Origin: an uncultured archaeon
GTDB lineage: Archaea; Thermoplasmatota; Penumbrarchaeia; JASLWR01
Length of the DNA: 64,000 bases
Assembly (NCBI GenBank): GCA_964342815.1
Contig: CAYFHS010000001.1
Location: 32,001-96,000 of the forward strand
Direction: 5' to 3'
A model generated the notes under the pieces. That model made no database searches, had not been told where the DNA came from, and worked only from the letters and a program-made list of their open reading frames with translations. Below, in pieces: positions 22,304-44,367 of the stretch. Position numbers and translations under genes: made by a program. The stretch's first letter is position 1. Every line of letters starts with the position of its first letter.

Positions 22304-22665
22304 GTTATCCCGTTTTTTATCTCGTTCAAATGATGTTGTAATATACCCTATTAAAAACACGTATTTCAGCGAGTTACTCGGCTCATATTCACTTATGTAG
22401 AATAGATGTGGGTAGCAAGAATGAATGATTATAACCGCGTTATATATATGGTTAATATAGGTTAAAAATATTATTGCGTCATTTCAAATTTTTTATTTTC
22501 ATTACAGGTTAACCGAATACGGTAACGACCCCATTAACAAAATATCTTTAACCTTGTTTTACAACAAAGTAAAAAATTATAAAAGGCACGACCCTAATCT
22601 TTTGCCCAGCTTCCAAGGGCCGGGGGTTGGTTAGTGGTTGTTCAATCGATTAAACGGAAGATATT

Positions 22666-23097
22666 ATGCCTGGCAGTTATTCAGAATATGGACGGGACCT
22701 TCTCGTTCTTACGAAAAAAGGAGTGGGTGACAAATTCACCACCGACCTGTCTGTGAAAAGGACGGGTGACCTTGAGACTGTGGAAGGACGTGATCTCATG
22801 ATTCAGGCAATAAGGCACAGGCTGCTAACGCGAAAGGGCGAACTTGCTCTGCTTGGTCATCCGGAGTACGGGTCTCTTCTGGAAGATGTTATCGGTGAGC
22901 CAAACATTCCGGATACCCATAGGATCATAGAGACGCTTATAAGAGACTGCCTGAAATACGAGGCCAGGATAAAAACCATAATATCGGTGAAAGCTTCTCC
23001 ATCCGAGAAAGACAAGGTAAATATATTGGTCCACGTAGAACTGCAAGGGGGAGATGGGGAACTAAAGATAACGTATCCCCTTTACCTGGAGGAGTGA
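22666..23097 (+). CDS. GPW/gp25 family baseplate wedge protein
   Basis: QAIRHRLLTRKGE...HPEYGS.L...IGEP...IRDCLKYEARI is a typical gp25 pattern. Confidence 0.85.
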   Translation: MPGSYSEYGRDLLVLTKKGVGDKFTTDLSVKRTGDLETVEGRDLMIQAIRHRLLTRKGELALLGHPEYGSLLEDVIGEPNIPDTHRIIETLIRDCLKYEARIKTIISVKASPSEKDKVNILVHVELQGGDGELKITYPLYLEE

Positions 23098-24593
23098 AAT
23101 TGGTTTTCAAAAAGAAAGAATACAAAAGTATCGTTGACGCAATTCTAAAAGATCTCCAGGAACGCTCGCAGGTGGCGGATACCAATGTGGGATCGGTGAG
23201 CCGGACACTCGTGGAATCCGTAGGACGTGAGATTTCGATAATGTACGAGCAGATGGAGGCGGCCTACAATGCCGGTTTTATAGATTCGGCCAAGGGAACC
23301 GCTCTGGATATGGTGGTGGCCGTTCTGGGAGTTCAGAGAAAATCTGCTCAGTTTGCAACGGGCTCAGTGACTTTTTCAAGAAGAAAGGCCAACCAGGATG
23401 TTACCATTCCACGCGGAACTATGGTTTCCACAGTTTCCTCGGATCCCTCCAAGGTAAAGGTTTTCGAGACCAGCGTGACGGTTACGCTGATCAGGGTAAA
23501 TAATGATATTGAAGTACCTGTAAAGGCGGTTATTCCCGGCAAGGAAGGAATGGCGGATTTTGAGACCATCGTGAAACTTGATAGTCCCATCATAGGTATA
23601 GACCGGGTGTTGAATAAAAAACCTACGACCATCGGAACAGAGAGGGAGACCGACGAGGAATTAAGGGCCAGAGCAAAGGCAGTGGTGCTTTCAGCCGGTA
23701 AGACCACTGTGGAATCCATAAGAAATGCTGTCATGTCCATCCCTGGTGTAAGAGGAGTGACAGTGAACGACATGCCCGATGGTGTCCCCGGCGAGATAGA
23801 CGTTATCGTGGATGGGCCCGACATCTCGGACCCGGAAGGAAGCACTTCTTTGGCCGTCTTCGAGACAGTGGAAAGGGTGAGACCGGCGGGGATAAGGGTC
23901 AATATTAAATCCACCACTCTCGTGAGGACCGATATTACAGCATTCGTCAATCTTACGGACGTTGCGAGAACCGACGAGGAGATGGACCGGACCCTCGATT
24001 CCATCCGAGACAGTGTCACAAATTACATTATTTCGCTTAACAGCGGGGACAATATCATAAGGAACCGACTGGTGACGGCATTGTTCGGCAATCCCAATAT
24101 TGACAATCTCGAAGATATGGTGATAATCACCAGGGTATTCGATGAAAAGGTAAGAGGAATGGTGGAAGATACCCGAAAAAGGATTGACGAGCGGACCCGT
24201 GATATCGAGATCGGCGAGTATGAGCGGGTGGACCTGTCGGGGGTTGATATCAGGACGCAGTTCACCCCCAGGCTCATCTCGTACGTGCAGATCGACCTTT
24301 CGGCACGAGTGATACCTACCAAAAAGACAATTTCCTTGGAAAGGCTCCGGGAGGGAATCGAGAACCAGATACACGCACATTTCGATAAACTGAGGACCGG
24401 GGAGACAGTGGATTACCAAAGAATATTCAATCTTGTGAAAGGTGTCGAGGGCATATCCGAACTGGTAGAACTGAATATCTCTGCCTTCCATGAGGAATCG
24501 GGATTGACCTTGAACGACGCAAATGACAACATAATTACATCCGATAACGAGATCGTAAAACTCAGGAATGTGGATGTCGATATGGAAGGTTAG
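23094..24593 (+). CDS. Baseplate J/gp47 (T4 gp6-like) protein
   Basis: FIDSAKGTALD..VAVLGVQRKSAQFATGSVTF, ETDEELRARAK, PGEIDVIVDG, VRPAGIRV; GTGA overlap with the gp25 stop codon. Confidence 0.88.
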   Translation: MKLVFKKKEYKSIVDAILKDLQERSQVADTNVGSVSRTLVESVGREISIMYEQMEAAYNAGFIDSAKGTALDMVVAVLGVQRKSAQFATGSVTFSRRKANQDVTIPRGTMVSTVSSDPSKVKVFETSVTVTLIRVNNDIEVPVKAVIPGKEGMADFETIVKLDSPIIGIDRVLNKKPTTIGTERETDEELRARAKAVVLSAGKTTVESIRNAVMSIPGVRGVTVNDMPDGVPGEIDVIVDGPDISDPEGSTSLAVFETVERVRPAGIRVNIKSTTLVRTDITAFVNLTDVARTDEEMDRTLDSIRDSVTNYIISLNSGDNIIRNRLVTALFGNPNIDNLEDMVIITRVFDEKVRGMVEDTRKRIDERTRDIEIGEYERVDLSGVDIRTQFTPRLISYVQIDLSARVIPTKKTISLERLREGIENQIHAHFDKLRTGETVDYQRIFNLVKGVEGISELVELNISAFHEESGLTLNDANDNIITSDNEIVKLRNVDVDMEG

Positions 24594-24639
24594 GGAATTT
24601 CATTATCTGGTTCAGTTCCACATATGCAGGTGAGCTAAG

Positions 24640-25785
24640 ATGCTTAACACGGAAAGGATGGCAAATCGGCTTCCCATGTACCTCGAGGCTTACCGGGAAA
24701 ACTCCACCATCAGAGCCGTTCTTGATGCTTTCGGGAGAGAGATGGAGAGGGCTGAGGAAAATCTCGGGAAACTGATGAAATCCAAATGGTTCTTCCATGC
24801 TGACCTCGGTGACCTGGAGAGGATGGGGCTGCTTTTCGGGATTCCAAGGCTCCCTGGCGAGATGAAGGTTCCATACCGCCAGCGCTTCTATCTCACTGTG
24901 AAAGAGCTGCTTACCGGAGCAGGCACGATAGATTCCATAAGCAAAATTGTAGAAGCCACAATAGGGACTTCCCCCGATATTGAAGAGAATCCCGCTGAGA
25001 TAGTTGAGAGCCCGGTCCGTGAACTTGGATCTGACAGCGCCTGGAGCGAATACAACAAAAGCGTGAAGGAGGACCGGCCCGTAATAACGATCCGCCCCCT
25101 TACCCGGGTCCGGGACCCCACGGTAACGAACATCACTACACAGGAATCCATCACATACAGGGGATTGCTTCGCAAAGGATCCATGCTGCGGATACTGCCG
25201 GATGGGACCGCTTCACTTGCAGGGATCGACGTATCGTCCCGCTTGGAATTTTATAAGGACGACCAACGGCAGACCGAGGTGCTGACGCCCAGGGTGCCAA
25301 AGATGCATTCCGAATGGAAGTATACGGATGGAACCGGATTTTTCGATTACGCGCATTTCTCGGAAGCTGTTTTCGCCGCTGCTGCAAAAAATCAGGTAGC
25401 AGTGCAGTTAAGGTGGATAAGATACAGACCTGCCACGTTCAATGTCAGGATGGCGCTGTACTCCAAGGGAGGCCGGTCCACCGAATCAATCGGTTACGAA
25501 AAACACCTCCGACAGGAAGTGCGCCATCTAGTTGATCACGTGAAGAGCGCCGGCGTAAAGGCCAATATTAATTTCTACGACAATTTCACGGAGAAAAATA
25601 CGGTGCGGGATCAGGGGATCGAGCCCTCCTTTGGAATCCATCATACGGACCGTGAAACCCTAGGGGAAGAACTGGAGATGAATGTTGTGATGGAGTTCTG
25701 CGAGCAGCAGACCCTGGGGGACCGAATCTATTCCTGCGGAGTATTCGATATTACTGAATTCGACTCGGCGAATGTGTGGGGATGA
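24640..25785 (+). CDS. Phage tail protein I / gp7-like baseplate wedge protein
   Basis: DLERMGLLFGIPRLPGE...YRQR...GAGTIDSI N-terminal pattern and VKSAGV C-terminal pattern; follows baseplate J with its own SD (GGTGAG). Confidence 0.7.
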   Translation: MLNTERMANRLPMYLEAYRENSTIRAVLDAFGREMERAEENLGKLMKSKWFFHADLGDLERMGLLFGIPRLPGEMKVPYRQRFYLTVKELLTGAGTIDSISKIVEATIGTSPDIEENPAEIVESPVRELGSDSAWSEYNKSVKEDRPVITIRPLTRVRDPTVTNITTQESITYRGLLRKGSMLRILPDGTASLAGIDVSSRLEFYKDDQRQTEVLTPRVPKMHSEWKYTDGTGFFDYAHFSEAVFAAAAKNQVAVQLRWIRYRPATFNVRMALYSKGGRSTESIGYEKHLRQEVRHLVDHVKSAGVKANINFYDNFTEKNTVRDQGIEPSFGIHHTDRETLGEELEMNVVMEFCEQQTLGDRIYSCGVFDITEFDSANVWG

Positions 25786-25829
25786 ATTTTTTATCACAAA
25801 TACTCAATCTTTGCCTCTATCATCTCCAC

Positions 25830-25863
25830 CCTTCTCAACCCTCCCGGGCTCATGGACCGCACC
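25830..25863 (-). repeat. Degenerate non-coding copy of the 3' end of the FG-GAP gene (28097-28130)
   Basis: ccttctcaaccctcccgggctcatggaccgcacc vs cctttccaaccctccccaactcatccaccgcacc, 27 of 34 identical by manual alignment. Confidence 0.55.
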
Positions 25864-25959
25864 TTTTTTTCCCCCTCTCATCAATAAGGGCTCGCATAAG
25901 AATAAGTTCCCATTCTTGCATCCCATCTACCAAGTGGCACACCCGTAGAAAACATTTCT

Positions 25960-27273
25960 TTACTTCCATTGTGATGCGGAATAGCTCAGTAACCATTCCC
26001 ATAGGGGTATGTAATCGATGGTTTTCCCTTCTATGTCCTTCATATCTCTGGTATCTCCTGAAATAATCGTGCCCTTATCGAGGTCGAATTTATCAAGAGC
26101 GGATAGAAGAGATCTTGTTTCTCTTTCATCTGCGGCAGATACATCACAGCAGACCTGGATCGCCTCAACGATCTCATCCCCCTTCATTATCAGGAAATCC
26201 ACCTCCCCGGAACTGTCCTTCCAGTAGTACATCTCATCATTATATCTCTTAAGTTCCATGAATACGATATTTTCGTACAGTCTTCCGAGGTCGCGGCTGA
26301 ATTTGAATCCCACTGCGTTCCTTATACCCGTATCCGTACAGTATATTTTCTTCGGGTTGACCTGCTGCTTTTTGAGTGAATGGGAGAAGATGGACAATGA
26401 GAAAAAAAAGTAAGCTTCTTCCATGGCATGCAGGTAGCTCGATACGGTATCGGATGAGATTCCCAGGTGTTTTGCGATTTTACTGTAATTCAGCAGATTT
26501 GATATATTTGGAAAGAGATAATTCTTCAGGTTTTCCACCTTGTCGGTCTTCGTAACGTTCGACCTCTTGATCACATCCCGGTATAGAATGCTGTCGGAAT
26601 AGAATTTAAGAAGTTCCTTCTTGAAGCTTTCATTTTTTTCAAGGACGATCTCAGGAAAACCGCCCCACTGAATATATTCTCTCAGATGGTTTTTTATCAT
26701 ATGCCTTTTTGAGATGATCTCCAGCTTTCCATCGATTGTTACATTCTTTGCTTTGATAAATTCCCTGAAAGACAGGGGGTACACCTCGAAGTAAACGAAT
26801 CGACCGGCCAATGAGGTGGACAGTTCGCTCTTAAGCAGCCTGGAGCCGCTCAAGAATATCTTAACATCTTTATCCAGGTCATATATCCTTTTTACCGTTC
26901 GATCCCAATCCTTCTGTTCCTGCACCTCGTCCAGAAAGATATACACCTTTCCCGTCGGGTTGAACATTTCGAGATGCTTGGTCCTGGCACTTTCGATAAG
27001 GTTTTCTTCCTGAATTCTCTCATCATCGCATTTGATGAATAGAATATTCTCTCCGGGGACCTTTGTCAGCAGATATTTTATCAGAATGTACATTATCGTT
27101 GTCTTGCCGGACCTTCGACAACCGGTAATGGGAATAACCTGTTTCTTGTCGATCCACAATATTATTTTTTCCAGGACTTCCCGTTCCAGATAATCCGATT
27201 TGAGATCCCCTGTCCACCAGGGATTCCATTCGACGAGTATTTGCTCTTGCATTATAGTTGTAATACGGCTCAT
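25960..27273 (-). CDS. AAA+ ATPase, AAA_14 + DUF4143 family
   Basis: EWNPWW start, Walker A GCRRSGKT, Walker B IFLDEVQ, SGS motif, GGFPE, KKIYCTDTG, YENIV, EVDF. Confidence 0.9.
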   Translation of the reverse strand: MSRITTIMQEQILVEWNPWWTGDLKSDYLEREVLEKIILWIDKKQVIPITGCRRSGKTTIMYILIKYLLTKVPGENILFIKCDDERIQEENLIESARTKHLEMFNPTGKVYIFLDEVQEQKDWDRTVKRIYDLDKDVKIFLSGSRLLKSELSTSLAGRFVYFEVYPLSFREFIKAKNVTIDGKLEIISKRHMIKNHLREYIQWGGFPEIVLEKNESFKKELLKFYSDSILYRDVIKRSNVTKTDKVENLKNYLFPNISNLLNYSKIAKHLGISSDTVSSYLHAMEEAYFFFSLSIFSHSLKKQQVNPKKIYCTDTGIRNAVGFKFSRDLGRLYENIVFMELKRYNDEMYYWKDSSGEVDFLIMKGDEIVEAIQVCCDVSAADERETRSLLSALDKFDLDKGTIISGDTRDMKDIEGKTIDYIPLWEWLLSYSASQWK

Positions 27274-27419
27274 GGCAAATAAATCTTCCGAATGAAATCG
27301 TGTAATTTATGAATTTTACGCGATTTAAATCGTGTGTTCTACAAAAATGAGACGACCAGCTATGGAAAAATCTACATTATTTCCGGTCCCTTCCGCTAGA
27401 ATTCATCTTCGTCGTTCCC

Positions 27420-27983
27420 CTACTCCTCCTTACCCTTTCTTCTCATTCCAAACATCAAGATACCAACGATCGCTCCTACCAAGAACACTACAAGCACAAC
27501 CCCCACGAGCCACAACACCTTACCATCCCCTTCTTCCGCATTTTCTTGTCTTTCCCACCGTTCGCTGTCATCAGGATAAGCATCGTCCACGTTCAGTACC
27601 CCGTCCCCATCTCTGTCCGGATCGATGAAACCGGGTATCCCTTCTCTATTTTGATCTCTTGGATACAATGTATAATAAAGGGAATCTTCATCCGTTTCGG
27701 TATCCGGATACCAGTAAAAATAAGCTGTAAATGAAATAACAACAAGGGAGATGATAACTGCAACAAGAAAAAGTAAACGACCCTGTTTCTTACTCTTATA
27801 TTCTATCTGTTTTAGGCGTTTCTTCTCTTCTTTCATGGATGAATGTTCGAAATAATAGTTGCAACTGGGACAGAACTTTTTGTTTCTTTCCGCTGTAAAA
27901 ACGAATTTCTTGCATTTGGGACATATTCGTATCTTAGTGTCGGCTTTGCCACCTTTCACTTTCGACATAATATCCACCATCAT
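27420..27983 (-). CDS. Small membrane protein: zinc ribbon, TM, TSP3-like Ca-binding repeat, TM
   Basis: CPKC...CPSC; two hydrophobic segments; DPDRDGDGVLNVDDAYPDD nearly identical to the C-terminus of 28083-31427. Confidence 0.7.
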   Translation of the reverse strand: MMVDIMSKVKGGKADTKIRICPKCKKFVFTAERNKKFCPSCNYYFEHSSMKEEKKRLKQIEYKSKKQGRLLFLVAVIISLVVISFTAYFYWYPDTETDEDSLYYTLYPRDQNREGIPGFIDPDRDGDGVLNVDDAYPDDSERWERQENAEEGDGKVLWLVGVVLVVFLVGAIVGILMFGMRRKGKEE

Positions 27984-28082
27984 ACGTTATATGCACCAAT
28001 GTTACCTTCAAACTTCTACATTTAAATGTTCGTTCTCTAAATTAAGCTTTATTGAATATCATTCATCCCCTTCTTCCCTTTT

Positions 28083-31000
28083 CTAGCCATCACTATCCTT
28101 TCCAACCCTCCCCAACTCATCCACCGCACCACCTTCTATCTTCTCCTCACCCGTACCCTCCTTCCTTCTGACCAATATCACTCCCCCAATCACTACGAGC
28201 ATCAACACTGCACCCAAAATTATCACTAGCCACCATACCGTACCGTCCCTTTCTTCCACTATTTTCTCCGCTTCCCATCGATCTCCGTCATCGGGATAAG
28301 CGTCGTCCACGTTCGCTACCCCGTCTCCGTCTCTGTCTGGGTCCAGGGAATCGGGTATGCCGTCTCGGTCGATGTCCTGTGGGACCGATAAATTATTCCG
28401 GGGATCCGTACCGACTTGCGTCTCAATGGTGTCATTCCAGCCGTCACCATCTGAATCTAATGGGGTCTGGTTGTTATAATTGTATTCTACATACATTGTT
28501 AGTAAATCCTCGTTCGTAGGAATTCTACAATCCTGGTTTCCATCAGTTGCGATAAAATAATATCCATGAAATCCCTCGGGCAAATTTAGAGAATATTCGT
28601 ATCTAATTCCATCCGAAAAATTAAACCGCTTGGGATCATCCTTAATCATTGAATACCAGAAATTACCAATTATCAAACTAATATTCGCCGGGGGATCATT
28701 ATCAACATCCATGTAATGCACGTAGAATGTGAAATTCATGGACGTATCTCCATTATTTGGTGTGACATTCCCATCATACAAGATTGGCGGATCGTTGACG
28801 TTCCATACGCGAAGCAGGAACTCGCTGTAGCCCCAACCGTCATTTCCATCTGAAACAGTGATATTGACCATATAGATACCTACATCGTCATTCGTTGGTG
28901 TTCCATTCAATATGCCAGTATTGGAATTTATCGACAGCCATGTAGCATTCGTCATAAGGGACCATGAAATCAACCCCTGCCCATCATCAGTTGAATTGTA
29001 TTCGTTATAGTATACCTCATCCTGATATATTTCAACGATATTTCGAGTGGTAATAATAGGAGGTGTATTCAATACATCGAAAATGAAATTGAAAAAGTCT
29101 TCACCGTCGTTACCGTCATCTATAGAAACGTTTATGTTATACTTTCCCACATCGTGATTCGTTGGATGACCGAATAGAACTCCAGATGTCGAATTCTGGC
29201 TTAACCAATCTGCATTTGTATCAAGATCCCATGTAGTGCTCCCCTCGCCCTCATCGGTTGAGTTTAGGTCTAAAAATAATTCTTCATCCTCATAAACGTA
29301 ATACCTGTCGGGTAAAAAGATTTCGGGGGATGTATTATTAACAACAATAGTGAAATTTATCTCATCCCAATAAATAATACCTTGAACATGGAGATTGACC
29401 CAATATGTACCCACATGGAGATTGAAAGGGAATCCAACGAGGCTGTTAGTGAATTCATCCCAGAATAACCAGGGCGCATTGGTATTGAGGGTCCACGACT
29501 CAGGTTTCTCTCCTGTAGTATTGAAATGTAGTGAGTAGTTATCATCCTCGCTCAAATATACAATTGTAGGTCTTGTCTCAAGATATATGCCTGGTCTAAT
29601 GCTGAGATTGATTAGTATCGTTAGGTCTTTCATGGATGAAATCTCAACCCAACCCCATCCACTTGCATTGATCCATCTATAGCGGTCGTGGGTGCGGTTG
29701 GCAATGGTAATCTCACCACGGAACTTCCCAGTGTTTTCTCCGCTCTCTAATAATCTCAATCTGAATCGATTATTAGGGTTAGATTTTCCTTTGACCCAGA
29801 CCTGGGCAACATTCTTCCGAGATGGATTTCTATCGTTCGCCCTCAGTTCTAAGAATATCTTGTTACCAGCGTATACGTAGGAAATTTCTTGTGAGTATTC
29901 ATCGTCAGAATAGGCTTTGACAGAGGTGATGGATGTGGGTCGGGAGTTGAGATCCGGAAAGATGAGGTATGTCTGGCCAGCGTCACTACCTCCCTCGTCA
30001 TTTTTGTTTGCTCCAATCAGAATGTCGTCATATCCGTCTCCGTTGACATCGCCCCCACCTGCTACTGAATATCCAGACCAGTCGTATGCGTCTTCTCCCC
30101 AGAATGATGCGTCCGATGCGGATAGATCGGTGTCCATAACCCAGCCGGAGGGCTTGCCTAATATAAGGTATGACTGGCCTGCTCGATAATTATTGTTGCG
30201 GTTTCGATATGCTCCAATCAGAATGTCGTCATATCCGTCCCCATTAACATCTCCCGCACCTGCAACCGAACCTCCAGAACTGTCCCATTGGTCTTCTCCT
30301 AAGAAGGATATGTCTGATGTTGAGACGTCCATATCCATGAACCAGCCAGAAGCTTTGCCGAGTATGAGGTATGTTTTCCCTTTTGACTGACCGAAGCCGG
30401 GAGCTCCAATCAGAATGTCGTCGTATTCATCCCCGTTAACATCACCCCCACTTGCGACTGACCATCCGGAAACACTGCCTATGCCCTTTCCCCAAAAAGA
30501 TGCGTCCGAATCGGAGAGGTTTGTGTCCATGGCCCATCCCGAACCTTTTCCAAAGATGAGGTATGTTTGGCCGGAAGCTAATCCACCACTTTCATCCTCG
30601 TATGCTCCAATCAGAATGTCGTCATATCCATCTCCGTTGACGTCTCCTGCACCTGTGACGGAGCATCCAGAACAGTCGCCTCCGTCCTCCCCTAAAAACG
30701 ATGCGTCTGAATCAGAGAGGCTTGTGTCCATGGCCCAGCCTGAGCTCTTGCCGAATATGAGATATGTCTGACCTGTATAATCACCACCGCTGTTCTCGTC
30801 ACCGAATGCTCCAATCAGAATGTCATCGTATCCATCCCCGTTGACGTCTCCTGCACCTGCGATCGATATCCCCGAATAGTCTTGTTGGTCTTCTCCCCAA
30901 AATGATGCGTCCGAATCAGAGAGGTCGGTGCCCATGGACCACCCGGAAACCTTTCCTAGTATGAGATATGTCTGGCCTGCACGAGAACCACCGTCCTCAT

Positions 31001-31427
31001 CATAGACTGCTCCAATCAGAATATCGTCATATCCGTCTCCGTTGACATCCCCCGCTCCAGCAATCGAGGCTCCAGAGCCGTCATCAGAGTCCTCTCCCAG
31101 AAATGATGCGTCTGAATTGGAGAGGTTTGTGTCCATGGACCACCCGGAAGCTCTGCCGAATATGAGATATGTCTGACCTGAATGATTCCCAGCATCATCG
31201 TCACCGTTTGCTCCGATCAGAATGTCGTCATATCCATCTCCGTTGACATCCCCCGTAACTGCGATCGAGCCCCCGGACCAGTCATCGGCGTTCTCCCCCC
31301 AGAATGATGCATCAACATTCCCGAGATCCTGGTTCATCCCATAATCCAGCGCCTTAGAAGATATTGGAATGAGAAGCATTGAGACTATCATCAGGAATAT
31401 CGTGCCCAAAGCGAATTCTTTTCTCAT
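28083..31427 (-). CDS. Secreted seven-repeat FG-GAP surface protein with cadherin/Ig-like domains, TSP3-like repeat and TM anchor
   Basis: Signal peptide; seven GDVNGDxYDDILIGA repeats; DTNADWLS/DDGNDG cadherin-like motifs; DSDGDG/DRDGDG; TM plus RRK. Confidence 0.9.
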   Translation of the reverse strand: MRKEFALGTIFLMIVSMLLIPISSKALDYGMNQDLGNVDASFWGENADDWSGGSIAVTGDVNGDGYDDILIGANGDDDAGNHSGQTYLIFGRASGWSMDTNLSNSDASFLGEDSDDGSGASIAGAGDVNGDGYDDILIGAVYDEDGGSRAGQTYLILGKVSGWSMGTDLSDSDASFWGEDQQDYSGISIAGAGDVNGDGYDDILIGAFGDENSGGDYTGQTYLIFGKSSGWAMDTSLSDSDASFLGEDGGDCSGCSVTGAGDVNGDGYDDILIGAYEDESGGLASGQTYLIFGKGSGWAMDTNLSDSDASFWGKGIGSVSGWSVASGGDVNGDEYDDILIGAPGFGQSKGKTYLILGKASGWFMDMDVSTSDISFLGEDQWDSSGGSVAGAGDVNGDGYDDILIGAYRNRNNNYRAGQSYLILGKPSGWVMDTDLSASDASFWGEDAYDWSGYSVAGGGDVNGDGYDDILIGANKNDEGGSDAGQTYLIFPDLNSRPTSITSVKAYSDDEYSQEISYVYAGNKIFLELRANDRNPSRKNVAQVWVKGKSNPNNRFRLRLLESGENTGKFRGEITIANRTHDRYRWINASGWGWVEISSMKDLTILINLSIRPGIYLETRPTIVYLSEDDNYSLHFNTTGEKPESWTLNTNAPWLFWDEFTNSLVGFPFNLHVGTYWVNLHVQGIIYWDEINFTIVVNNTSPEIFLPDRYYVYEDEELFLDLNSTDEGEGSTTWDLDTNADWLSQNSTSGVLFGHPTNHDVGKYNINVSIDDGNDGEDFFNFIFDVLNTPPIITTRNIVEIYQDEVYYNEYNSTDDGQGLISWSLMTNATWLSINSNTGILNGTPTNDDVGIYMVNITVSDGNDGWGYSEFLLRVWNVNDPPILYDGNVTPNNGDTSMNFTFYVHYMDVDNDPPANISLIIGNFWYSMIKDDPKRFNFSDGIRYEYSLNLPEGFHGYYFIATDGNQDCRIPTNEDLLTMYVEYNYNNQTPLDSDGDGWNDTIETQVGTDPRNNLSVPQDIDRDGIPDSLDPDRDGDGVANVDDAYPDDGDRWEAEKIVEERDGTVWWLVIILGAVLMLVVIGGVILVRRKEGTGEEKIEGGAVDELGRVGKDSDG

Positions 31428-31575
31428 TATGACTACCTTTTAAAAATAGTTTCTCGACTTTACAATTAATATATGAATTTATAGTTACAATAATAATTAA
31501 ATTTTTGTCCTACATTTTCAATTCTTGGGTTATTGTCGTATCCTTGCTCCATTGCACTTCATTGTCGTTTAGGGA

Positions 31576-31714
31576 ACATAACGGACCGGTCTGTATGCTA
31601 AGTTCTGCGGGTGGGGATAGTATACGGTCGATCCAACAGTACGGTGAGGGAAAATAGGTCGGAAGCCGTAAGAGCGAAAACCGCCAAGTTGTTGGTTATG
31701 CAAAGTCGTTAGGA
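31576..31714. other. Solitary attC-like imperfect palindrome (139 bp)
   Basis: Ends ACATAACG...CGTTAGGA; inner arms tgtatgctaa/ttggttatgca and gcgggt/accgc; imperfect match to the RYYYAAC/GTTRRRY core; no integrase in the window. Confidence 0.35.
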
Positions 31715-31828
31715 GCAAGCTTTTAAGTGCCTCGGTTTGCCATTTGAGTGGAAAAAAGCTCATCTATTCATCAAGAAGTATTTTGAAAGAGGAAACTATT
31801 TAAATTAGTTTCCCTCTATGAAATACTT

Positions 31829-33148
31829 ATGAAGCGAGATGTATTCATTGAAATTATACAGGACTTTAAAGAAAAATCACTCCCGGAATTGGTGGAACGT
31901 GAAACGATACTGAAAAGACCTACCGTAAAAAAAATAATTTCTGTGATCGGGCCTCGCAGAGCAGGTAAAACCTATTATATTTTCAATATTATAAAAAACC
32001 TAATCTCCGAGGGGATCCCGAAAGAGAGGGTGATTTACGTTAACCTTGAAGATGAGCGTTTATTTCCTCTTGAAGTAAAAGATATGGATTTATTTCTCCG
32101 GACCTTCTTTGAAATTCATTCTGTTGATAAAAATGAAGAAATCCATCTTTTTTTAGATGAAGTTCAAAATGTGGATAATTGGGAAGCATTTGTAAGGCGT
32201 ATAATGGACACATACAATATTCAAATATATATAACAGGTTCATCTTCGAAATTGTTATCTAAAGAAATTGCAACTTCATTGAGGGGTAGATCATTATCAA
32301 CAACTATACTACCATTTTCTTTTCGAGAATATTTAAAGGCAGGAAAAATTGAAATAAATAAATTTCTATCTTCATCAAAAAAAGAAAAAATCCGCTCTAA
32401 GCTTTCAATTTTTTTAAAATATGGCAGCTTTCCCGAAATCACCCTCGAAAAGGATAACGATCTAAAGCATAAGATCATTAAAGAATATGTTGAAGTTATG
32501 CTTCTTCAGGATATTATTGAAAGGTATAATATTAAAAATACAAAATTATTGAAAATATTATTTGATGGTATCATATCATCAACTTCAAGTACATTTTCAA
32601 TCCATAAATTCTTTAAATTTCTACGTTCACAAGGTATGAAAATTAGCAAGAATACCCTGTATCAGTATGTTCAATACCTTGAAGATGCCTACGCGATCAT
32701 ATTATTGAGAAGTTTTAATTTTTCAGCTCGTATGGTTGAACAGAGTTTACCGAAGGTCTACCCAATCGATCCCGGTTTCATATTGACACATTCCACTCGT
32801 TTTTCAAGGGACTTGGGGAAGGCTATGGAAAATGTAGTGGCAGTTGAACTTTTCAGGAGAAGATCCGAACAACCCAGTCAAGATATATATTACTGGAAAG
32901 AACAGAATAGCAAAGAAGTGGATTTTGTTATTAAAGAGAATCTGAAAATTACCAAATTAATTCAGGTTTGTTATGACATTGATAATTTCAATACCTACAG
33001 ACGTGAGATTGATTCTATACTCAGATCCAGTGAAATATTGGAATGTAATGATCTGTGTGTTATAACCTGGGATAAGGACGAAATAATTGAGGTAAAGGGT
33101 AAAAAAATAGAATACATCTCGCTCTGGAAATGGCTGATAGCTCATTGA
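31829..33148 (+). CDS. AAA+ ATPase, AAA_14 + DUF4143 family (AT-rich)
   Basis: GPRRAGKT, FLDEVQ, ITGSSS, SLRGR, GSFPE, KVYPIDPG, MENVV, EVDF; visibly more AT-rich than its neighbours. Confidence 0.9.
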   Translation: MKRDVFIEIIQDFKEKSLPELVERETILKRPTVKKIISVIGPRRAGKTYYIFNIIKNLISEGIPKERVIYVNLEDERLFPLEVKDMDLFLRTFFEIHSVDKNEEIHLFLDEVQNVDNWEAFVRRIMDTYNIQIYITGSSSKLLSKEIATSLRGRSLSTTILPFSFREYLKAGKIEINKFLSSSKKEKIRSKLSIFLKYGSFPEITLEKDNDLKHKIIKEYVEVMLLQDIIERYNIKNTKLLKILFDGIISSTSSTFSIHKFFKFLRSQGMKISKNTLYQYVQYLEDAYAIILLRSFNFSARMVEQSLPKVYPIDPGFILTHSTRFSRDLGKAMENVVAVELFRRRSEQPSQDIYYWKEQNSKEVDFVIKENLKITKLIQVCYDIDNFNTYRREIDSILRSSEILECNDLCVITWDKDEIIEVKGKKIEYISLWKWLIAH

Positions 33149-33365
33149 TTGTTATTTTCTTGTATATTCACGCTTCATCAGTCATCGTCGAAAAATCTTC
33201 TTCAATCTTCCGATCGTGAAATTGAATTTTAATCCCAAGTCATGTATCAAAATTCGCCATAACACTTTGGTTTCCGAGTGTACCCTTTTGACAAAATACC
33301 ACATTACCAATATCTCCTTCCCACCAGTTACCAGCCAACATAGAAATAAAATATCTGAATTACCC

Positions 33366-35570
33366 ATGGCTACCATGCAGGAATTGATCTCAAAATTTCT
33401 GAAAATAATCGCGGATCGGATATCCCGCCACAGAATTCTCTATATTATCATAGTGGTATTGATAACCGCGGCCCTCATCTATCCTCTTTTACAGATAAAG
33501 TTCAACGCCGATATGGATGTTTTTTCACCGGATGAGCCCGTGGTAGTGGCAAAAAAATATGTGGAAGATAATTTTCTATCCGAAAAAGTGATATTAATAA
33601 TCGCAATTCCTACTTCAGGCAGGGTCAACGATACGGAATTTCTGGGTGATCTAATAGAAACGGGGGATTGGATCGAGGTTAATGAAATAATTGAAAATAC
33701 GTTTTCCATTGCGGATTATATCGAAATAGTATTAAATATGTCGAATCTGACGATGTCCGAATGTCCACTCGAGATGCTCGATTCTTTACTGTATCAGGCC
33801 ACAATGGATCGGAATGTTTCCGGACTCTTTACTTCGGAGGCGGCCCTTATAATGGTCAGTCCTTCGGATTCCTCGGATGAGGGCGAATTGAGCGAGTTTC
33901 TGCGGAAGGATGTCCGTGATACTCAAAATGTTCAATACAAAATTCTTGCCGGGTTCGATGAGGATCTGAACGATGGGGCAATACGAAGTCTTTACCTGTT
34001 CCCCGTAACCATTGCCCTCATCATCGCCGTGCTGTATCTCAGTCTCAGACGCTGGTTCGATGTGGTTCTGACAATGTTTGCTATTCCGGTCGTATTGATT
34101 TGGACCTTCGGAATCTCCGTTATCGTGGGACTTGAGATCACCATCCTGGGTATGGCTGTGCCATTTATAGTGCTTGCCCTGGGTATCGATTACGCCATTC
34201 ATTCCATGAACCGCTATACCGAGGAGAAGGAGCGGGGATTGTCTGGCGAAAAAGCAGCGGGCACGACCATAAAATACCTAGGTGTGGCGCTTCTACTCTC
34301 CTCCATAACCACGGTGGCGGCGTATCTGTCCAATGCTGCGTCATCCATACCCGCAGTTGTGGATTTCGGGATAATGGTGGGAATCGGGATCACCAGCTCA
34401 TTTCTGATAATGGGTCTCCTTTTACCGGTTGTCCGATCACTTTTCGGCAAGGGTAACATCGGGAAAAAACGAGCCGATCCCGTAGGAACAATATGGAAAA
34501 AACTGAGCCGGAAACTAGGTCGCTTGTTCAATAAACCACGGAACGCCGCAATTGTCCTTGCCTTCATTTTGATAATTACAGCCATATCCGCTTCCATGGC
34601 CTTGAAATTGGACTCGGAATTCGAGCCCGACGATATTCTTCCCGAAGACTCCGAATGGTTGGATGCACAGAGAACATTGGTCGAGCATTTTCCCATAAAC
34701 CTGAATAGTTACCAGGTCCTGATAACGGGAGATATCGCCAATCCCGAAACATTGAGGGCCATCGAATCGGTGACCCTGAACAACCAGGTCAGTGATTCGC
34801 TAGTGCACCATTTAACAAACTGGTCATCTCTCGACAGTGAAGGTATTGCCGAGTTATTGGACCAAATATTCATTGAAGATCCGTCCATGGGCCATGTGCT
34901 CCATAAGGACGGAAACGTATACGATGCAACGGTGATCTGGTTGGATGGTGCCCATGAGAACGATATCGATCTTACGTCTCTCGAAGGCGTAAAGGGGATC
35001 GATTTCATCATTACCGGGGAAAAACTCACGGGCGATCTGGTGGTGGATGAACTTTCGTCGTCGATGCTGACCTCGCTTTTTATTTCCATCATTGTCTGCG
35101 CAGTGGTGGTATCTCTCGTTTATCTCTCCCCCAGGATCGGAATTATTACTTTGCTGCCTGTCAGCATAGTTACAGTTTGGCTATTATCGGCCATGCGGAT
35201 CTTGGGTTTTTCTCTGAATGTTGTTACGATAATAATTGCAGTCACATCCATCGGAGTGGGCATTGATTATTCCATCCATATCACTCACAGCTTTCTCAGT
35301 GAAAGGGCGAAAAATATCGTAAGACAGAAAGCGATTATCAACTCACTCGGTCGCAGCGGGATCTCGCTTGTGGGAGCGGCTCTCACCACCTCGCTGGGTT
35401 TTCTTGTTTTGGCATTTGCTCCGATGAAAGGGTTTATGGCTTTTGGTATCCTCACCCCAATAATGATCATTTTCAGTCTTTTCGGAGCGATTCTTGTATT
35501 GCCGCCGTTACTGCTGTTATCGGACCGGCTCCCGTACATTAAGAATATTCTGGGTCGACGTAATAGATAA
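33366..35570 (+). CDS. RND/MMPL family transporter
   Basis: Two repeats of 1+5 TM; LGIDYAIH and VGIDYSIH motifs; start likely ATG 33366 or 33375. Confidence 0.88.
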   Translation: MATMQELISKFLKIIADRISRHRILYIIIVVLITAALIYPLLQIKFNADMDVFSPDEPVVVAKKYVEDNFLSEKVILIIAIPTSGRVNDTEFLGDLIETGDWIEVNEIIENTFSIADYIEIVLNMSNLTMSECPLEMLDSLLYQATMDRNVSGLFTSEAALIMVSPSDSSDEGELSEFLRKDVRDTQNVQYKILAGFDEDLNDGAIRSLYLFPVTIALIIAVLYLSLRRWFDVVLTMFAIPVVLIWTFGISVIVGLEITILGMAVPFIVLALGIDYAIHSMNRYTEEKERGLSGEKAAGTTIKYLGVALLLSSITTVAAYLSNAASSIPAVVDFGIMVGIGITSSFLIMGLLLPVVRSLFGKGNIGKKRADPVGTIWKKLSRKLGRLFNKPRNAAIVLAFILIITAISASMALKLDSEFEPDDILPEDSEWLDAQRTLVEHFPINLNSYQVLITGDIANPETLRAIESVTLNNQVSDSLVHHLTNWSSLDSEGIAELLDQIFIEDPSMGHVLHKDGNVYDATVIWLDGAHENDIDLTSLEGVKGIDFIITGEKLTGDLVVDELSSSMLTSLFISIIVCAVVVSLVYLSPRIGIITLLPVSIVTVWLLSAMRILGFSLNVVTIIIAVTSIGVGIDYSIHITHSFLSERAKNIVRQKAIINSLGRSGISLVGAALTTSLGFLVLAFAPMKGFMAFGILTPIMIIFSLFGAILVLPPLLLLSDRLPYIKNILGRRNR

Positions 35571-35654
35571 GATAATAATTATACTCCACATTGCAGAATT
35601 GAAGCCCAAAGCGATTCCGTGTTCCGCTGCTTGCCTATAAAAACTTCTTTTCCT

Positions 35655-35948
35655 TCATTTTGCAAGAGTAAAAAGGCGGTGGTCCTCTTCCACATCGAAT
35701 AATCCCAGGCGAGCGCCGGCGTCAAGCCACCCGTGAGCGTAATTTATCGCTGCAAAAGCGTTCACGTAGTCGTCGTTATCGTAGAAATGATTCGCATCGC
35801 TGTAGTACCTACCAGCCATATCGAAAAAATCCTTTGCCACCTCAGAAATATGAGAGCTGCCCGGGGCGATTATGGCGGCTTTCTCCATGGCAAGGCGCGT
35901 AATATCGAGGTATTTGAGTATCTTTTCCTTGCTAATAACATCTTTCAT
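35655..35948 (-). CDS. DUF357 domain protein (archaeal)
   Basis: MAGRYYSDANHF...DYVNAFAAINYAHGWLDAGARLGLF. Confidence 0.88.
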   Translation of the reverse strand: MKDVISKEKILKYLDITRLAMEKAAIIAPGSSHISEVAKDFFDMAGRYYSDANHFYDNDDYVNAFAAINYAHGWLDAGARLGLFDVEEDHRLFTLAK

Positions 35949-36012
35949 TGTATCTCACCAGTTCGACGAGCTAAAAGCCAGCCTACTCGGCACTTGCCAT
36001 TTTCCGGATGTA

Positions 36013-36774
36013 CTATTCTTTGTCGAAAACGAATCTCCACAGAACAGCAGCAAGCACTCCGCCAATAATGGGCGCCAGCAGGAATAACCACAACTGCGAA
36101 AGGGTTTCTCCTCCCACGAACACGGCCGGTCCGAGACTGCGTGCCGGATTTACCGAAGTCCCGGTTATTGGTATCCCGATAAGATGAATCACAACGAGGG
36201 AGAAGCCTATGGCGACACCGGCGAATCCCTTTGGCGCTCCCTTGCTGGTTGCCCCGAAGATAACGAATAGAAATAATGCCGTGAGAACCACCTCGGCGGT
36301 GAAGGCCGAAACCACCGAATAACCTCCGAAATTATCCGGACCAAAGCCATTTTGGCCTAGGCCGTTCTCTGCAAGTGAATAACCGTCCCTCCCGCTTGCT
36401 ATGGCATACAAGGTTCCTGCTGCAATGATCGCTCCTATGCACTGGAATAGTATATACATCACAGCGTCCCTTGATTTTATCTTGCCCGCAACCAGCATGG
36501 AGAGTGTTATGGCAGGATTGATGTGACAGCCAGAGATGTTCCCTATGGCATAGACCATCATCATGACGGTCAAACCGAAAGCAAATGATATGCCCAGATA
36601 ACCAATTTGTCCACCCATATTAAAGGAATTCATGGCGATATTTTCAGCGGAGAGGTTTCCCGACAGGGTGATACTGCTCTTTCCGGCTATCACGGCACTG
36701 CCGCAACCTATCAGGACCAGTGCGAAGGTCCCGATCATTTCAGCTACGTACTTGCTCATATTATTCTTTTCCAT
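36013..36774 (-). CDS. aqpZ: Aquaporin Z-like MIP channel
   Basis: ISGCHINPA and TSVNPARSLGPA motifs; AEMIGTF. Start moved to ATG 36774. Confidence 0.9.
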   Translation of the reverse strand: MEKNNMSKYVAEMIGTFALVLIGCGSAVIAGKSSITLSGNLSAENIAMNSFNMGGQIGYLGISFAFGLTVMMMVYAIGNISGCHINPAITLSMLVAGKIKSRDAVMYILFQCIGAIIAAGTLYAIASGRDGYSLAENGLGQNGFGPDNFGGYSVVSAFTAEVVLTALFLFVIFGATSKGAPKGFAGVAIGFSLVVIHLIGIPITGTSVNPARSLGPAVFVGGETLSQLWLFLLAPIIGGVLAAVLWRFVFDKE

Positions 36775-36992
36775 TTCATTGACCCCCAATCTTGTGGGCG
36801 TGTCATTTCTGGGAGATTTGAATGACTTAAAGAGACAAATAACGAACTTATATTCAATATTTTTCATATTTTGGCTGGATTATCTTTTTTTCGGAGACTC
36901 GAGACTATGGTTCGTGAATAAAACGGAACTTCGATCTCCAACATCAATCCACCTACCTCATATCGTCAAATTGCATCATATTGTCTATGGTG

Positions 36993-37016
36993 AAAAGCTT
37001 GATGCATCAAGGTTTT
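36993..37016. promoter_or_regulatory. 24-bp near-perfect palindrome, candidate operator
   Basis: aaaagcttgatg|catcaaggtttt, arms match at 11 of 12 positions; lies between the divergent aqpZ and parvulin genes. Confidence 0.4.
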
Positions 37017-37032
37017 TAGCTTGACGATGTTC

Positions 37033-37144
37033 GCGGAATCGCGGGCCTGTAGGCTTACCGGCCGAAGGCTCAGCAGAGCCGTAGGGTCTGCGGAGCGAAG
37101 TGGGAGCCCGAAGGAAAAAGTATGTTTCCGAGGGCCGATTCTGC
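37033..37144. other. GC-rich structured intergenic element
   Basis: Closing stem gcggaatcg/cgattctgc with internal hairpins; contains tgcggagcgaagtggg, also present with one change at 54333-54348. Confidence 0.4.
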
Positions 37145-37195
37145 ACAATAAAATTGAATTATTATATGTACCCTAACGTTGAGCGGTGTGAGAAC

Positions 37196-44356: not shown

Positions 44357-44367
44357 TTACATCACCT

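What the first reader, a model, noticed from the sequence alone, without database searches (positions are those of the whole stretch)
22666..25785. Orphan contractile-tail baseplate wedge operon in an archaeal chromosome
gp25, baseplate J and a gpI/gp7-like gene form a tight three-gene operon with its own AT-rich upstream region. These are the wedge components shared by myophage tails, R-pyocins, eCIS (Afp/PVC) and T6SS (TssE/F/G). There is no sheath, tube, spike, tape measure, capsid, terminase or integrase anywhere in 64 kb. The genes are intact, with host-like SD sites and base composition. This suggests a domesticated, split-locus contractile injection system rather than a prophage. The divergent neighbour is a large surface protease.
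Basis: partly seen in the sequence, partly recalled or inferred. Interest (0 to 1): 0.72.

Follow-up and report, generated by a model that had tools for sequence, protein, structure and literature searches.

The report
Baseplate module of a scattered archaeal injector
These three genes encode the baseplate wedge of a headless, phage-tail-like injection machine whose other parts are encoded at six or more separate places in an archaeal chromosome, a layout kept across several families that cluster-based searches for such machines would miss.

Summary
Window 22666-25785 is a tight three-gene operon:
- a gp25-like sheath initiator;
- a Baseplate J protein (TRI-2 type);
- a gpI/TRI-1-like wedge protein, with a wedge-type helical N-terminus and a Dit-type galectin-like domain.

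The same genome encodes every other part of a simple contractile tail, at separate loci flanked by cellular genes:
- sheath;
- XkdM/diffocin-like tube;
- XkdN-like assembly chaperone;
- tape-measure-like proteins;
- hub;
- spike and PAAR;
- fibre genes.

No terminase, portal or HK97 capsid family was found.

In four metagenomic contigs (IMG/VR), homologues of these genes form one continuous cluster in phage order.

Among the 37 genomes of the class, J, sheath, spike and hub occur only in the same nine genomes. None was found in the other 28, nor was J found in 364 further genomes of the phylum. J phylogeny follows host families, and non-synonymous change is far below saturated synonymous change.

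One same-genus relative has lost J, I, the hub and the tube through separate deletions.

The system resembles a PBSX/diffocin-type tailocin, not an Afp-type eCIS or a T6SS. Its mode of action is inferred. Other agents in this scan had already reached the same system from other modules of this genome.

The parts
22361..22665 (+). AT-rich promoter and leader region, shared with the divergent C25 protease gene
   Evidence: It has 34% GC against 50% in the operon. It holds TATA-like boxes (GTTATATATATGG and AAAATTATAAAAGG). No motif is shared with the promoters of the other modules beyond what random gene sets give.
22666..23097 (+). gp25-like sheath initiator (143 aa)
   Evidence: Family and profile hits:
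- PF10934 2.3e-8 and phrog_975 2e-20.
- Profile hits to phi812 ORF61 (4e-14), diffocin sheath initiator CD1370 (2.7e-4) and Pvc9.

The gp25/TssE-type EPR motif reads EAR here, but EPR in most orthologues.
23094..24593 (+). Baseplate J / TRI-2-type wedge protein (499 aa)
   Evidence: - Baseplate_J 1.3e-30 and phrog_6 6.7e-56.
- Profile hits to phi812 ORF62 (6.9e-35) and diffocin TRI-2 CD1371 (1.9e-24).
- 50-66% identical orthologues in six genomes of the class.
24640..25785 (+). gpI / TRI-1-like wedge protein (381 aa): helical N-terminus, galectin-like middle domain, conserved C-terminal tail
   Evidence: - phrog_1160 2e-12 on residues 3-123.
- Profile hits to the phi812 TmpF N-terminus (0.004) and to Bas63 wedge protein 1 (0.066).
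- AF2 model, mean pLDDT 67.6. The 117-264 domain scores above 90 apart from a low-confidence loop at 234-248.
- VIA Z 13.3 to the monocin tip 9j1k_K and 13.1 to SPP1 Dit for residues 117-264. Z 5.8-7.1 to Bas63, PhiTE and Mu baseplate helices for residues 1-93.
- Only 19 homologues were found (18 besides the window's own copy), all in this lineage.
25786..25800 (+). Oligo-T stretch directly after the last stop codon (likely archaeal terminator)
   Evidence: The sequence ATTTTTTATC starts right after the TGA. This is an inference from known archaeal oligo-T termination.

Best explanation
The operon encodes the wedge of a contractile baseplate.

**Wedge assembly (inferred from solved homologues).** Two copies of the J protein and one copy of the I-like protein form the wedge triplex through their N-terminal helices. 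Six wedges close around a hub-spike-PAAR centre. The gp25-like protein sits on the wedge and starts sheath polymerisation around an XkdM-like tube. The galectin-like domain and the conserved C-terminal tail of the I-like protein face outwards and probably dock the fibres or bind sugars.

**Dispersed partners (shown).** All partner proteins are encoded in the same genome as small units at other loci:

| Part | Position in G000 |
|---|---|
| Sheath | C10:47121-48551 |
| Tube, a 1051-aa tape-measure-like protein and a 415-aa protein | C36:38372-43702 |
| Assembly chaperone with an overlapping second frame | C1:107297-107966 |
| Hub and a 1179-aa tape-measure-like protein | C14:14883-19969 |
| Spike and PAAR | C52:1899-3437 |
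| Fibre genes | C8:17643-19450 |

**What the whole is.** Together they make a headless, phage-tail-derived particle of the PBSX/diffocin tailocin kind. An ancestor of several families of one archaeal class domesticated it, and its once continuous gene cluster was broken up and scattered.

**Shown versus inferred.** Shown: the identity of the parts, their dispersal, their joint distribution, vertical descent and purifying selection. Inferred: that they assemble into one particle, and that the particle is released to puncture other cells.
For: **Identity of the three proteins:**

**Other parts in the same genome**
- Sheath: PF04984 and PF17482.
- Spike: Phage_base_V. PAAR: 5.5e-20.
- Tube: profile hits to diffocin CD1364 (4.5e-4) and to an XkdM-like protein (4.8e-4).
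- Chaperone: helical AF2 model matching viral tail assembly chaperones, and Phage_TAC_5 in two homologues.
- Hub: phrog_4930 1.5e-5. Tape-measure PHROGs: 6.6e-12.

**Flanks are cellular**
- ScpA/ScpB and PAC2 lie near the sheath.
- NAD-dependent ligase and Cdc6/Orc1 lie next to the chaperone.

**The same genes occur as one cluster elsewhere.** Contigs L054, L055, L068 and L052 hold homologues (20-53% identity) of these genes as one continuous cluster in phage order.

**Joint distribution in the 37 genomes of the class**
- J: seven full copies, one fragment and one weak hit.
- Sheath: the same nine genomes.
- Spike: 7. Hub: 7. Tube: 4.
- All lie inside those nine genomes, and none in the other 28.
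- In the 401-genome phylum sample, J family members (50% identity or more) were confined to this class. The only hit outside it was 28% identical and stop-interrupted.

**Descent and selection**
- The J clade has SH-aLRT 100, and its inner branching follows host families.
- pN is 0.21-0.29 against pS 0.73-0.82, which is saturated, for gp25, J and I compared with G002 and G003.

**No head genes:** no Terminase_6N, TerL_ATPase, Phage_portal or Phage_capsid.
Against: - No expression data and no particle evidence exist.
- No lysis or release genes, regulator or cargo toxin was identified.
- No promoter motif shared among the modules was found.
- The gp25 EPR motif is EAR in this genome.
- The same-genus genome G001 lacks J, I, the hub and the tube. 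So the system is dispensable, and this genus may be relaxing selection.
- The tube was found in only 4 of the 9 genomes with a short query.
- All genomes are draft MAGs; this one is 89% complete.
- Only four head-gene families were searched.
Confidence: 0.78

Rival explanations
1. The operon is a non-functional remnant. An old provirus or tailocin cluster was broken up by rearrangements, and the pieces are slowly decaying with no present role.
For: - G001 (same genus) has a clean 12.4-kb deletion that removes J from about codon 44 and all of I.
- G001 also lacks the hub region and the tube.
- The EPR motif of gp25 is altered in three genera.
- No regulator or lysis genes were recognised.
Against: - Intact ORFs of 143, 499 and 381 codons persist in six genomes from four families at 42-67% amino-acid identity. 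Synonymous sites are saturated and pN is 0.21-0.29.
- Every tail part is still present and intact in G000, G002 and G003.
- Sheath omega is 0.04 and gp25 omega is 0.18 even against G001.
Confidence: 0.08
2. The genes belong to a gene-transfer-agent-like or complete virus-derived particle. Its head and packaging genes would also be scattered and too divergent to detect.
For: - Multi-locus encoding is known for alphaproteobacterial GTAs (PMC5721377).
- Only four head-gene Pfam families were searched.
- The genome is 89% complete.
Against: - No match to Terminase_6N, TerL_ATPase, Phage_portal or Phage_capsid at E <= 0.1.
- The HSTV-2 ORFs lying between its capsid and sheath genes found nothing in the genome, and neither did the ORFs of 46 viral loci find head-like genes.
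- The related continuous clusters on L054, L055 and L068 hold tail genes only, over 10-14 kb.
Confidence: 0.06
3. The machine is cell-anchored and fires from inside the cell like the haloarchaeal T6SS-like CIS. It would not be a released tailocin.
For: - Archaeal CIS bound to the cytoplasmic membrane and acting by contact are documented in haloarchaea (PMC11566945).
- No lysis cassette was found here.
Against: - The parts are of the phage-tail assembly type: an XkdN-like chaperone with an overlapping frame, tape-measure-like proteins and an XkdM-like tube.
- Fibre genes with Ig-like domains are present.
- The haloarchaeal system belongs to the eCIS clade and lacks a tape measure.
- No membrane anchor was identified, but none was sought.
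Confidence: 0.15
4. The apparent scattering is an artefact of metagenome assembly or binning.
For: All genomes involved are MAGs with 40 to 980 contigs.
Against: - Every module except spike-PAAR lies inside a long contig between cellular genes on both sides: C1 343 kb, C10 122 kb, C8 133 kb, C14 111 kb. C36 (44 kb) ends about 0.8 kb beyond the tube gene, and C52 (spike-PAAR) is only 12.9 kb.
- The wedge and the chaperone lie 50 kb apart on one contig.
- In G002 the tube and the hub lie 108 kb apart on one contig.
- Independent MAGs show the same separate units.
Confidence: 0.02

Closest known systems
R-type tailocins and PBSX-type defective phage tails (diffocin CD1363-CD1372; B. subtilis PBSX XkdK-XkdV)
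   Same: **Same part list, without a head:**
- sheath;
- XkdM-like tube (profile hit to CD1364 at 4.5e-4);
- XkdN-like chaperone;
- tape measure, hub and spike;
- sheath initiator (CD1370, 2.7e-4), TRI-2 (CD1371, 1.9e-24) and TRI-1;
- fibres.

The local gene order initiator, TRI-2, TRI-1 is also the same.
   Different: - The known systems are single continuous clusters in bacteria, with regulators and lysis genes. Here the genes sit in at least seven units around an archaeal chromosome, and no lysis or regulatory genes were recognised.
- Sequence identity to the bacterial proteins is low.
Baseplate of Staphylococcus phage phi812 (PDB 9euf: ORF61, ORF62, ORF63/TmpF)
   Same: These are the best solved-structure matches of all three proteins, and they come in the same gene order:
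- ORF61, 4e-14;
- ORF62, 6.9e-35;
- TmpF N-terminus, 0.004.
   Different: - phi812 is a complete lytic myovirus with a complex two-layer baseplate.
- TmpF has 1019 residues. The protein here has 381 and carries a Dit-type galectin-like domain instead.
Haloarchaeal myoviruses (HSTV-2, HRTV-2/11) tail modules
   Same: - They hold the closest J homologues among cultured viruses: 30% identity over residues 5-330.
- The gene order sheath, tube, chaperone, tape measure ... gp25-like, J, I-like is the same.
   Different: - They are complete viruses with capsid and replication genes.
- Of the HSTV-2 tail proteins, only J finds a match in this genome by sequence.
Archaeal and bacterial eCIS / T6SS-like CIS (Afp, PVC, Halogeometricum CIS; PMC11566945, PMC8213781)
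   Same: They are headless contractile machines with a gp25, J and gp7-like wedge, a spike and PAAR. They are known in archaea and are used in antagonism.
   Different: - Those systems are recognised as gene clusters. They use an Afp1/gp19-type tube, a Pvc16-type cap and an AAA ATPase.
- No PF06841 or CIS_tube match was found here.
- Assembly here appears to use a phage-type chaperone and tape measure.
Alphaproteobacterial gene transfer agents (RcGTA)
   Same: A domesticated, phage-derived particle that is vertically inherited and encoded at several loci (PMC5721377).
   Different: - GTAs keep head and packaging genes and one main cluster.
- No head genes were found here, and no main cluster remains.

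Membership tests
Contractile-tail baseplate wedge (sheath initiator + J/TRI-2 + I/TRI-1) | gp25-like sheath initiator domain | tested here: met
   PF10934 scores 34.5 bits, over the cut-off of 32.9. phrog_975 2e-20. PDB profile hits to several sheath initiators.
Contractile-tail baseplate wedge (sheath initiator + J/TRI-2 + I/TRI-1) | Baseplate J (gp6/TRI-2) domain | tested here: met
   PF04865 scores 107 bits, cut-off 21.1. Diffocin TRI-2 1.9e-24 and phi812 ORF62 6.9e-35.
Contractile-tail baseplate wedge (sheath initiator + J/TRI-2 + I/TRI-1) | Third wedge protein with a gp7/gpI/TRI-1-type N-terminal helical segment, encoded directly after J | tested here: met
   - phrog_1160 2e-12.
- TmpF N-terminus 0.004 and Bas63 wedge protein 1 at 0.066.
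- VIA Z 5.8-7.1 to Bas63, PhiTE and Mu baseplate helices.
- No Pfam hit.
- The evidence is weaker than for the other two genes.
Contractile-tail baseplate wedge (sheath initiator + J/TRI-2 + I/TRI-1) | Conserved Glu-Pro-Arg motif of gp25/TssE-type proteins (recalled from the T6SS/T4 literature) | tested here: inconclusive
   At the aligned position the motif reads EAR in this genome, ETR in G001, ESR in G003, and EPR or DPR in the other orthologues and in the related clusters.
R-type tailocin / headless phage tail | Full set of tail genes: sheath, tube, chaperone, tape measure, hub, spike, wedge, fibres | tested here: met
   One-to-one mapping onto the continuous clusters is shown.
R-type tailocin / headless phage tail | No capsid, portal or terminase genes | tested here: met
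   No match to PF03237, PF03354, PF04860 or PF05065 in the 89%-complete genome. Other head-gene families were not searched.
R-type tailocin / headless phage tail | Genes in one contiguous cluster with lysis and regulatory genes | tested here: not met
   There are at least seven separate loci on six contigs, each flanked by cellular genes. Lysis and regulatory genes were not identified.
R-type tailocin / headless phage tail | Released particles that kill or puncture target cells | not testable with these tools
   Needs culture or enrichment, electron microscopy and killing assays.
Afp/PVC-type extracellular contractile injection system | gp19/Afp1-type tube (PF06841, CIS_tube) | tested here: not met
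   No match at E <= 1 in the genome. The tube that is present matches XkdM/diffocin tubes.
Afp/PVC-type extracellular contractile injection system | Pvc16/Afp16-type cap (PF14065) | tested here: inconclusive
   There was no match, but the control genomes gave no match either.
Afp/PVC-type extracellular contractile injection system | Core genes in close proximity (the operational definition in PMC8213781) | tested here: not met
   The genes are dispersed.
Type VI secretion system | TssB/TssC sheath, ClpV, membrane complex | not tested
   The sheath is of the Phage_sheath_1 / Phage_sheath_1C type. No search was made for TssBC, ClpV or TssJLM.
Integrated provirus | Integrase, head and packaging genes next to the tail genes | tested here: not met
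   None among the window ORFs scanned. None of four head-gene families anywhere in the genome. An integrase family was not searched genome-wide.

The most novel reading that the evidence does not exclude
A whole archaeal clade, spanning at least four to five families of one class, has kept a working contractile nanomachine for a long evolutionary time. Its roughly 15 structural genes are encoded as single genes and two- to three-gene units scattered around the chromosome, like a cellular organelle regulon and unlike a mobile-element cluster. This would be the first dispersed, vertically inherited tailocin-like system, and the first of its type in this archaeal phylum. It would also imply that cluster-based censuses under-count such machines.
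Probability: 0.6. Interest if true: 0.8.

Novelty: new variant of a known kind. Interest (0 to 1): 0.7.

Why it matters
Contractile injection systems and tailocins are found in genomes by looking for clusters of core genes (PMC8213781). A fully dispersed but conserved system would be invisible to that approach. So such machines in archaea, and perhaps elsewhere, may be under-counted.

It also gives a natural example of how far a domesticated virus-derived machine can be absorbed into the host genome. The cluster is dissolved and the modules move between contexts in different genera, yet all parts stay under selection. One relative has been caught losing several modules.

It also points to an untested means of cell-cell interaction in an uncultured marine archaeal lineage.

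Tried and rejected
**Tube and hub searches with named families**
- The Pfam tube families PF06841, PF09393, PF19266 and PF04985 gave nothing usable in the genome.
- Phage_GPD and LysM also gave nothing.
- The tube was found only through the continuous clusters on IMG/VR contigs. It was then confirmed by a profile against PDB.

**Virus-based searches**
- phmmer with the HSTV-2 tail proteins found only J.
- tblastn of the sheath against 50,697 phage records found nothing.

**The gene after the sheath.** I first suspected that the 157-aa gene following the sheath in relatives was the tube. Its AF2 model is helical, and it matches tail assembly chaperones.

**Shared promoter motif.** The most widely shared 7- to 10-mers among the seven module promoters were no more frequent than in random sets of upstream regions.

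**Other checks that led nowhere**
- The bacterial-type promoter and terminator scan was uninformative.
- The 96-aa ORF 25776-26066 has no homologue and is not conserved in G002, so I treat it as spurious.
The contexts of metagenomic J homologues on long contigs therefore could not be read.
- The search of genome contigs gave only one locus.
- One class-wide search repeated the genome set.
Full report
**1. Observation**

Window 22666-25785 holds three co-directional ORFs.

- **First gene (143 aa).** It passes the Pfam threshold for Sheath_initiator (PF10934, 2.3e-8). It also matches GPW_gp25 and the baseplate family phrog_975 at 2e-20.
- **Second gene (499 aa).** It is a Baseplate_J protein (1.3e-30; phrog_6 6.7e-56). 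Its GTG start overlaps the stop of the first gene and sits behind a GGAGG.
- **Third gene (381 aa).** It starts 46 nt later behind an AGGTGA. It has no Pfam hit, but residues 3-123 match baseplate phrog_1160 at 2e-12.
- **Boundaries.** The upstream 305 nt have 34% GC, against 50% in the operon, and carry TATA-like boxes. An oligo-T run follows the last stop codon.
- **Host-like usage.** Codon usage correlates with other window genes, r = 0.87.
- **Neighbours.** The divergent neighbour is a 1948-aa Peptidase_C25/PKD surface protein. Downstream lies an AAA_14/DUF4143 ATPase. None of the other window ORFs I scanned carries a tail, head or integrase domain.

**2. The three proteins in detail**

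Profiles built from orthologues hit solved baseplates:

| Protein | Best matches |
|---|---|
| gp25-like | phi812 ORF61 (4e-14); diffocin sheath initiator CD1370 (2.7e-4); Pvc9 |
| J | phi812 ORF62 (6.9e-35); diffocin TRI-2 CD1371 (1.9e-24) |
| Third protein | N-terminus of phi812 TmpF/ORF63 (0.004); Bas63 wedge protein 1 (0.066) |

The gene order therefore equals ORF61-62-63 of phi812 and initiator, TRI-2, TRI-1 of diffocin.

An AF2 model of the third protein has mean pLDDT 67.6. It shows three regions:
- A helical N-terminal region (1-108). Its helices align with Bas63, PhiTE and Mu baseplate proteins at Z 5.8-7.1.
- A beta-sandwich at 117-264, with pLDDT above 90 apart from a low-confidence loop at 234-248. 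It matches the monocin tip protein (Z 13.3, rmsd 1.8 over 109 residues) and the galectin-like domain of SPP1 Dit (Z 13.1).
- A low-confidence C-terminal tail (313-381) that nevertheless ends in a conserved motif.

This protein family has only 19 members in 5.8 billion proteins (18 besides the window's own copy), all 44-85% identical.

In the gp25-like protein, the position of the EPR motif reads EAR here, ETR in G001, ESR in G003, and EPR elsewhere.

**3. The rest of the machine is in the same genome, elsewhere**

The assembly has 4.35 Mb in 116 contigs and is 89% complete. The window is C1:32001-96000.

| Part | Position | Evidence |
|---|---|---|
| Sheath (476 aa) | C10:47121-48551, alone; ScpA/ScpB two genes upstream and a PAC2 gene about 9 kb upstream | Phage_sheath_1 and its C domain |
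| Spike and PAAR | C52:1899-3437 | Phage_base_V/DUF2345; PAAR 5.5e-20 |
| Tube (about 133 aa) | C36:43208-43702 | See below |
| 1051-aa protein, then 415-aa protein | C36:38372-42771 | Follow the tube gene |
| Assembly chaperone (157 aa) | C1:107297-107770, next to NAD-dependent ligase and Cdc6/Orc1 | See below |
| Hub (496 aa) | C14:14883-16373 | phrog_4930, 1.5e-5 |
| 1179-aa tape-measure-like protein | C14:16430-19969, directly after the hub | Tape-measure PHROGs, 6.6e-12 |
| Fibre-type genes | C8:17643-19450 | phrog_5417, a tail-fibre PHROG, Big_1/Invasin domains |

The tube escaped four Pfam tube families. I found it another way. A scan of IMG/VR with a J alignment returned 46 loci. I compared all their ORFs with all ORFs of the genome.

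Four contigs (L054, L055, L068, L052) carry one continuous cluster in phage order:
- sheath, tube, chaperone with an overlapping second frame, tape measure;
- a post-tape-measure protein, hub, spike, PAAR;
- gp25, J, I and fibre genes.

Its members map one by one, at 20-53% identity, onto the dispersed genes listed above.

A profile of the tube matches the diffocin tube CD1364 (4.5e-4) and XkdM-like proteins (4.8e-4 and 0.04).

The 157-aa protein folds as a helical protein with a hairpin (pLDDT 80.6). It matches tail assembly chaperones of archaeal and bacterial viruses. Two of its homologues hit Phage_TAC_5, the XkdN family. Its conserved overlapping downstream ORF recalls the chaperone frameshift of tailed phages. 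That last point is an inference.

**4. No head**

Terminase_6N, TerL_ATPase, Phage_portal and Phage_capsid gave no match in the genome at E <= 0.1. The HSTV-2 ORFs lying between its capsid and sheath genes found nothing either. This covers four families in an 89%-complete MAG, so it is strong but not exhaustive.

**5. Distribution, descent and selection**

All 37 genomes of the class were searched:

| Part | Genomes with a match |
|---|---|
| J | Seven full copies, a 47-residue fragment in G001, a weak 24% hit in G007 |
| Sheath | The same nine genomes, 57-91% identity |
| Spike | 7 |
| Hub | 7 |
| Tube | 4 |

- All hits lie within those nine genomes. None lies in the other 28, including 24 genomes of one family.
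- In a sample of 401 genomes of the phylum, J family members (50% identity or more) were confined to this class. The only hit outside it was 28% identical and stop-interrupted.
- In the large protein database, about 50 proteins of 43-85% identity and nearly constant length form a tight group. Below them identity drops to 33% or less.
- One homologue carries the label "Thermoplasmata archaeon". That label and earlier notes of this scan are my only evidence for the phylum name.
- In a J tree this group is one clade (SH-aLRT 100). The genomes of family f1 and of family f8 each group together. The nearest outgroups are the continuous clusters, one beside a protein labelled Verstraetearchaeota, and bacterial J proteins.
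- Identities of J, sheath, hub, spike and tube fall in parallel from same-family to other-family genomes.
- The operon gp25-J-I is intact in G002, G003, G005 and G006. G006 has an extra ORF between J and I. J-I is seen in G010 and gp25-J in G014, both cut off by contig ends.
- Against G002 and G003, pN is 0.21-0.29 while pS is 0.73-0.82. Synonymous sites are saturated and amino-acid change is held back.
- Sheath omega against G001 is 0.04.

**6. The scattering is real and old**

- Most modules lie well inside long contigs between cellular genes. Exceptions are C52 (12.9 kb) and the tube, which lies about 0.8 kb from the end of C36.
- The wedge and the chaperone are 50 kb apart on C1.
- In G002 the tube and the hub are 108 kb apart on one contig. 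The tube there stands alone, and the sheath has other neighbours than in G000.
- In families f3, f4 and f8 the sheath is still followed by the chaperone gene, but the wedge operon lies on other contigs.
- So the cluster was already broken up in the common ancestor of these families, and further splits followed in f1.

**7. Loss in a close relative**

G001 belongs to the same genus (about 80% nucleotide identity).

- Its alignment jumps from window 23224 to 35654. This is a 12.4-kb deletion that removes J from about codon 44, all of I and five more genes.
- The hub and its tape-measure-like neighbour are missing between orthologues of C14:13743 and C14:23262. G002 keeps the G000 context there.
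- The tube was not found, and only a 178-aa piece of the 1051-aa protein remains.
- gp25 (omega 0.18), sheath, spike and the 415-aa protein are still intact.

Several independent deletions in different modules of one genome fit parts that are useful only together. They also show that the system is dispensable. Strain mixing within the MAG cannot be excluded.

**8. What it is and how it probably works**

The operon encodes the wedge: a sheath initiator and a (J)2-I triplex. This follows from solved baseplates of T4, diffocin and phi812, which is established knowledge. Six wedges surround the hub-spike-PAAR centre. The initiator seeds the sheath around the XkdM-like tube, whose length the tape measure sets with help from the chaperone. 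The I-like protein's outer domain and tail probably hold the fibres or bind glycans.

The whole is a headless contractile tail of the tailocin kind. Whether it is released or fires from within the cell is open. I favour release because of the fibre genes and the phage-type assembly genes. No lysis genes were seen.

**9. Comparison with known systems, and novelty**

- Archaeal CIS described so far are gene clusters of the eCIS lineage. These are the haloarchaeal T6SS-like CIS and the ANME and methanogen PLTS (PMC11566945, PMC12180501, PMC8213781).
- The census method requires core genes in close proximity.
- Five full-text searches found no description of a dispersed contractile system, or of one in this phylum.
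- Multi-locus encoding of a domesticated phage-derived particle is known for GTAs (PMC5721377), which keep heads and a main cluster.
- I therefore class this as a new variant of a known kind.

**10. Relation to earlier notes of this scan**

Notes on other pieces of this genome had already described the sheath, spike-PAAR, hub, tube and fibre modules, and had called the whole a scattered injector. I used them as leads. I then located and tested each module independently, as set out above. No look-alike stretch was noted in other scanned genomes.

Noticed in passing
window 23225-35653 and 37478-42347: Two large segments are absent from the same-genus genome G001. The first holds J, I, two AAA_14/DUF4143 ATPase genes, a zinc-ribbon protein, a 1114-aa FG-GAP/He_PIG surface protein and an MMPL transporter. 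The second holds a 1545-aa FG-GAP protein. This looks like a variable surface-protein region.
   Followed up: partly
G000:C1:107297-107966 (outside the window): The XkdN-like tail assembly chaperone gene has a conserved overlapping downstream ORF in a different frame. The overlap is also seen in G010, G014 and the IMG/VR clusters. It is reminiscent of the programmed frameshift of phage tail chaperones. The gene lies next to NAD-dependent DNA ligase and Cdc6/Orc1.
   Followed up: partly
G000:C36:43020-43139 and C40:5007-5119: A palindromic element of about 115 nt lies between the tube gene and the tape-measure-like gene. It has two identical copies in G000 and at least 16 copies (84-88% identity) in G001. 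It looks like a miniature mobile element, and it sits at a place where G001 has lost the tube.
   Followed up: partly
G005 (L031, L033, L035, L049, L103-L108): One genome of another family carries three to four sheath copies, two of them in tandem, and six tube copies. This suggests amplification of tail modules, or several systems.
   Followed up: no
G000:C14:16430-19969 and C36:39616-42771: The genome has two long tape-measure-like genes, one after the hub and one after the tube. Only the first matches tape-measure PHROGs. Which of them sets the tube length is unclear.
   Followed up: no
window 22666-23097 (residues around Y-E-A-R-I): The proline of the gp25-type EPR motif is replaced in three genera of family f1 (A, T, S). 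It is kept in G002 and in the other families.
   Followed up: partly
protein P0019: A J homologue 53% identical to the window protein is labelled [Eubacterium] cellulosolvens at NCBI. It sits on a 15-kb contig, which is probably mis-binned or a contaminant.
   Followed up: no
window 1-22360 and 28083-46215: The window has an unusual density of very large predicted surface proteins: PKD/GH123-like 1518 aa, C25 protease 1948 aa, FG-GAP 1114 and 1545 aa, VWA 645 aa, and an ORF of more than 1327 aa running off the window end.
   Followed up: no
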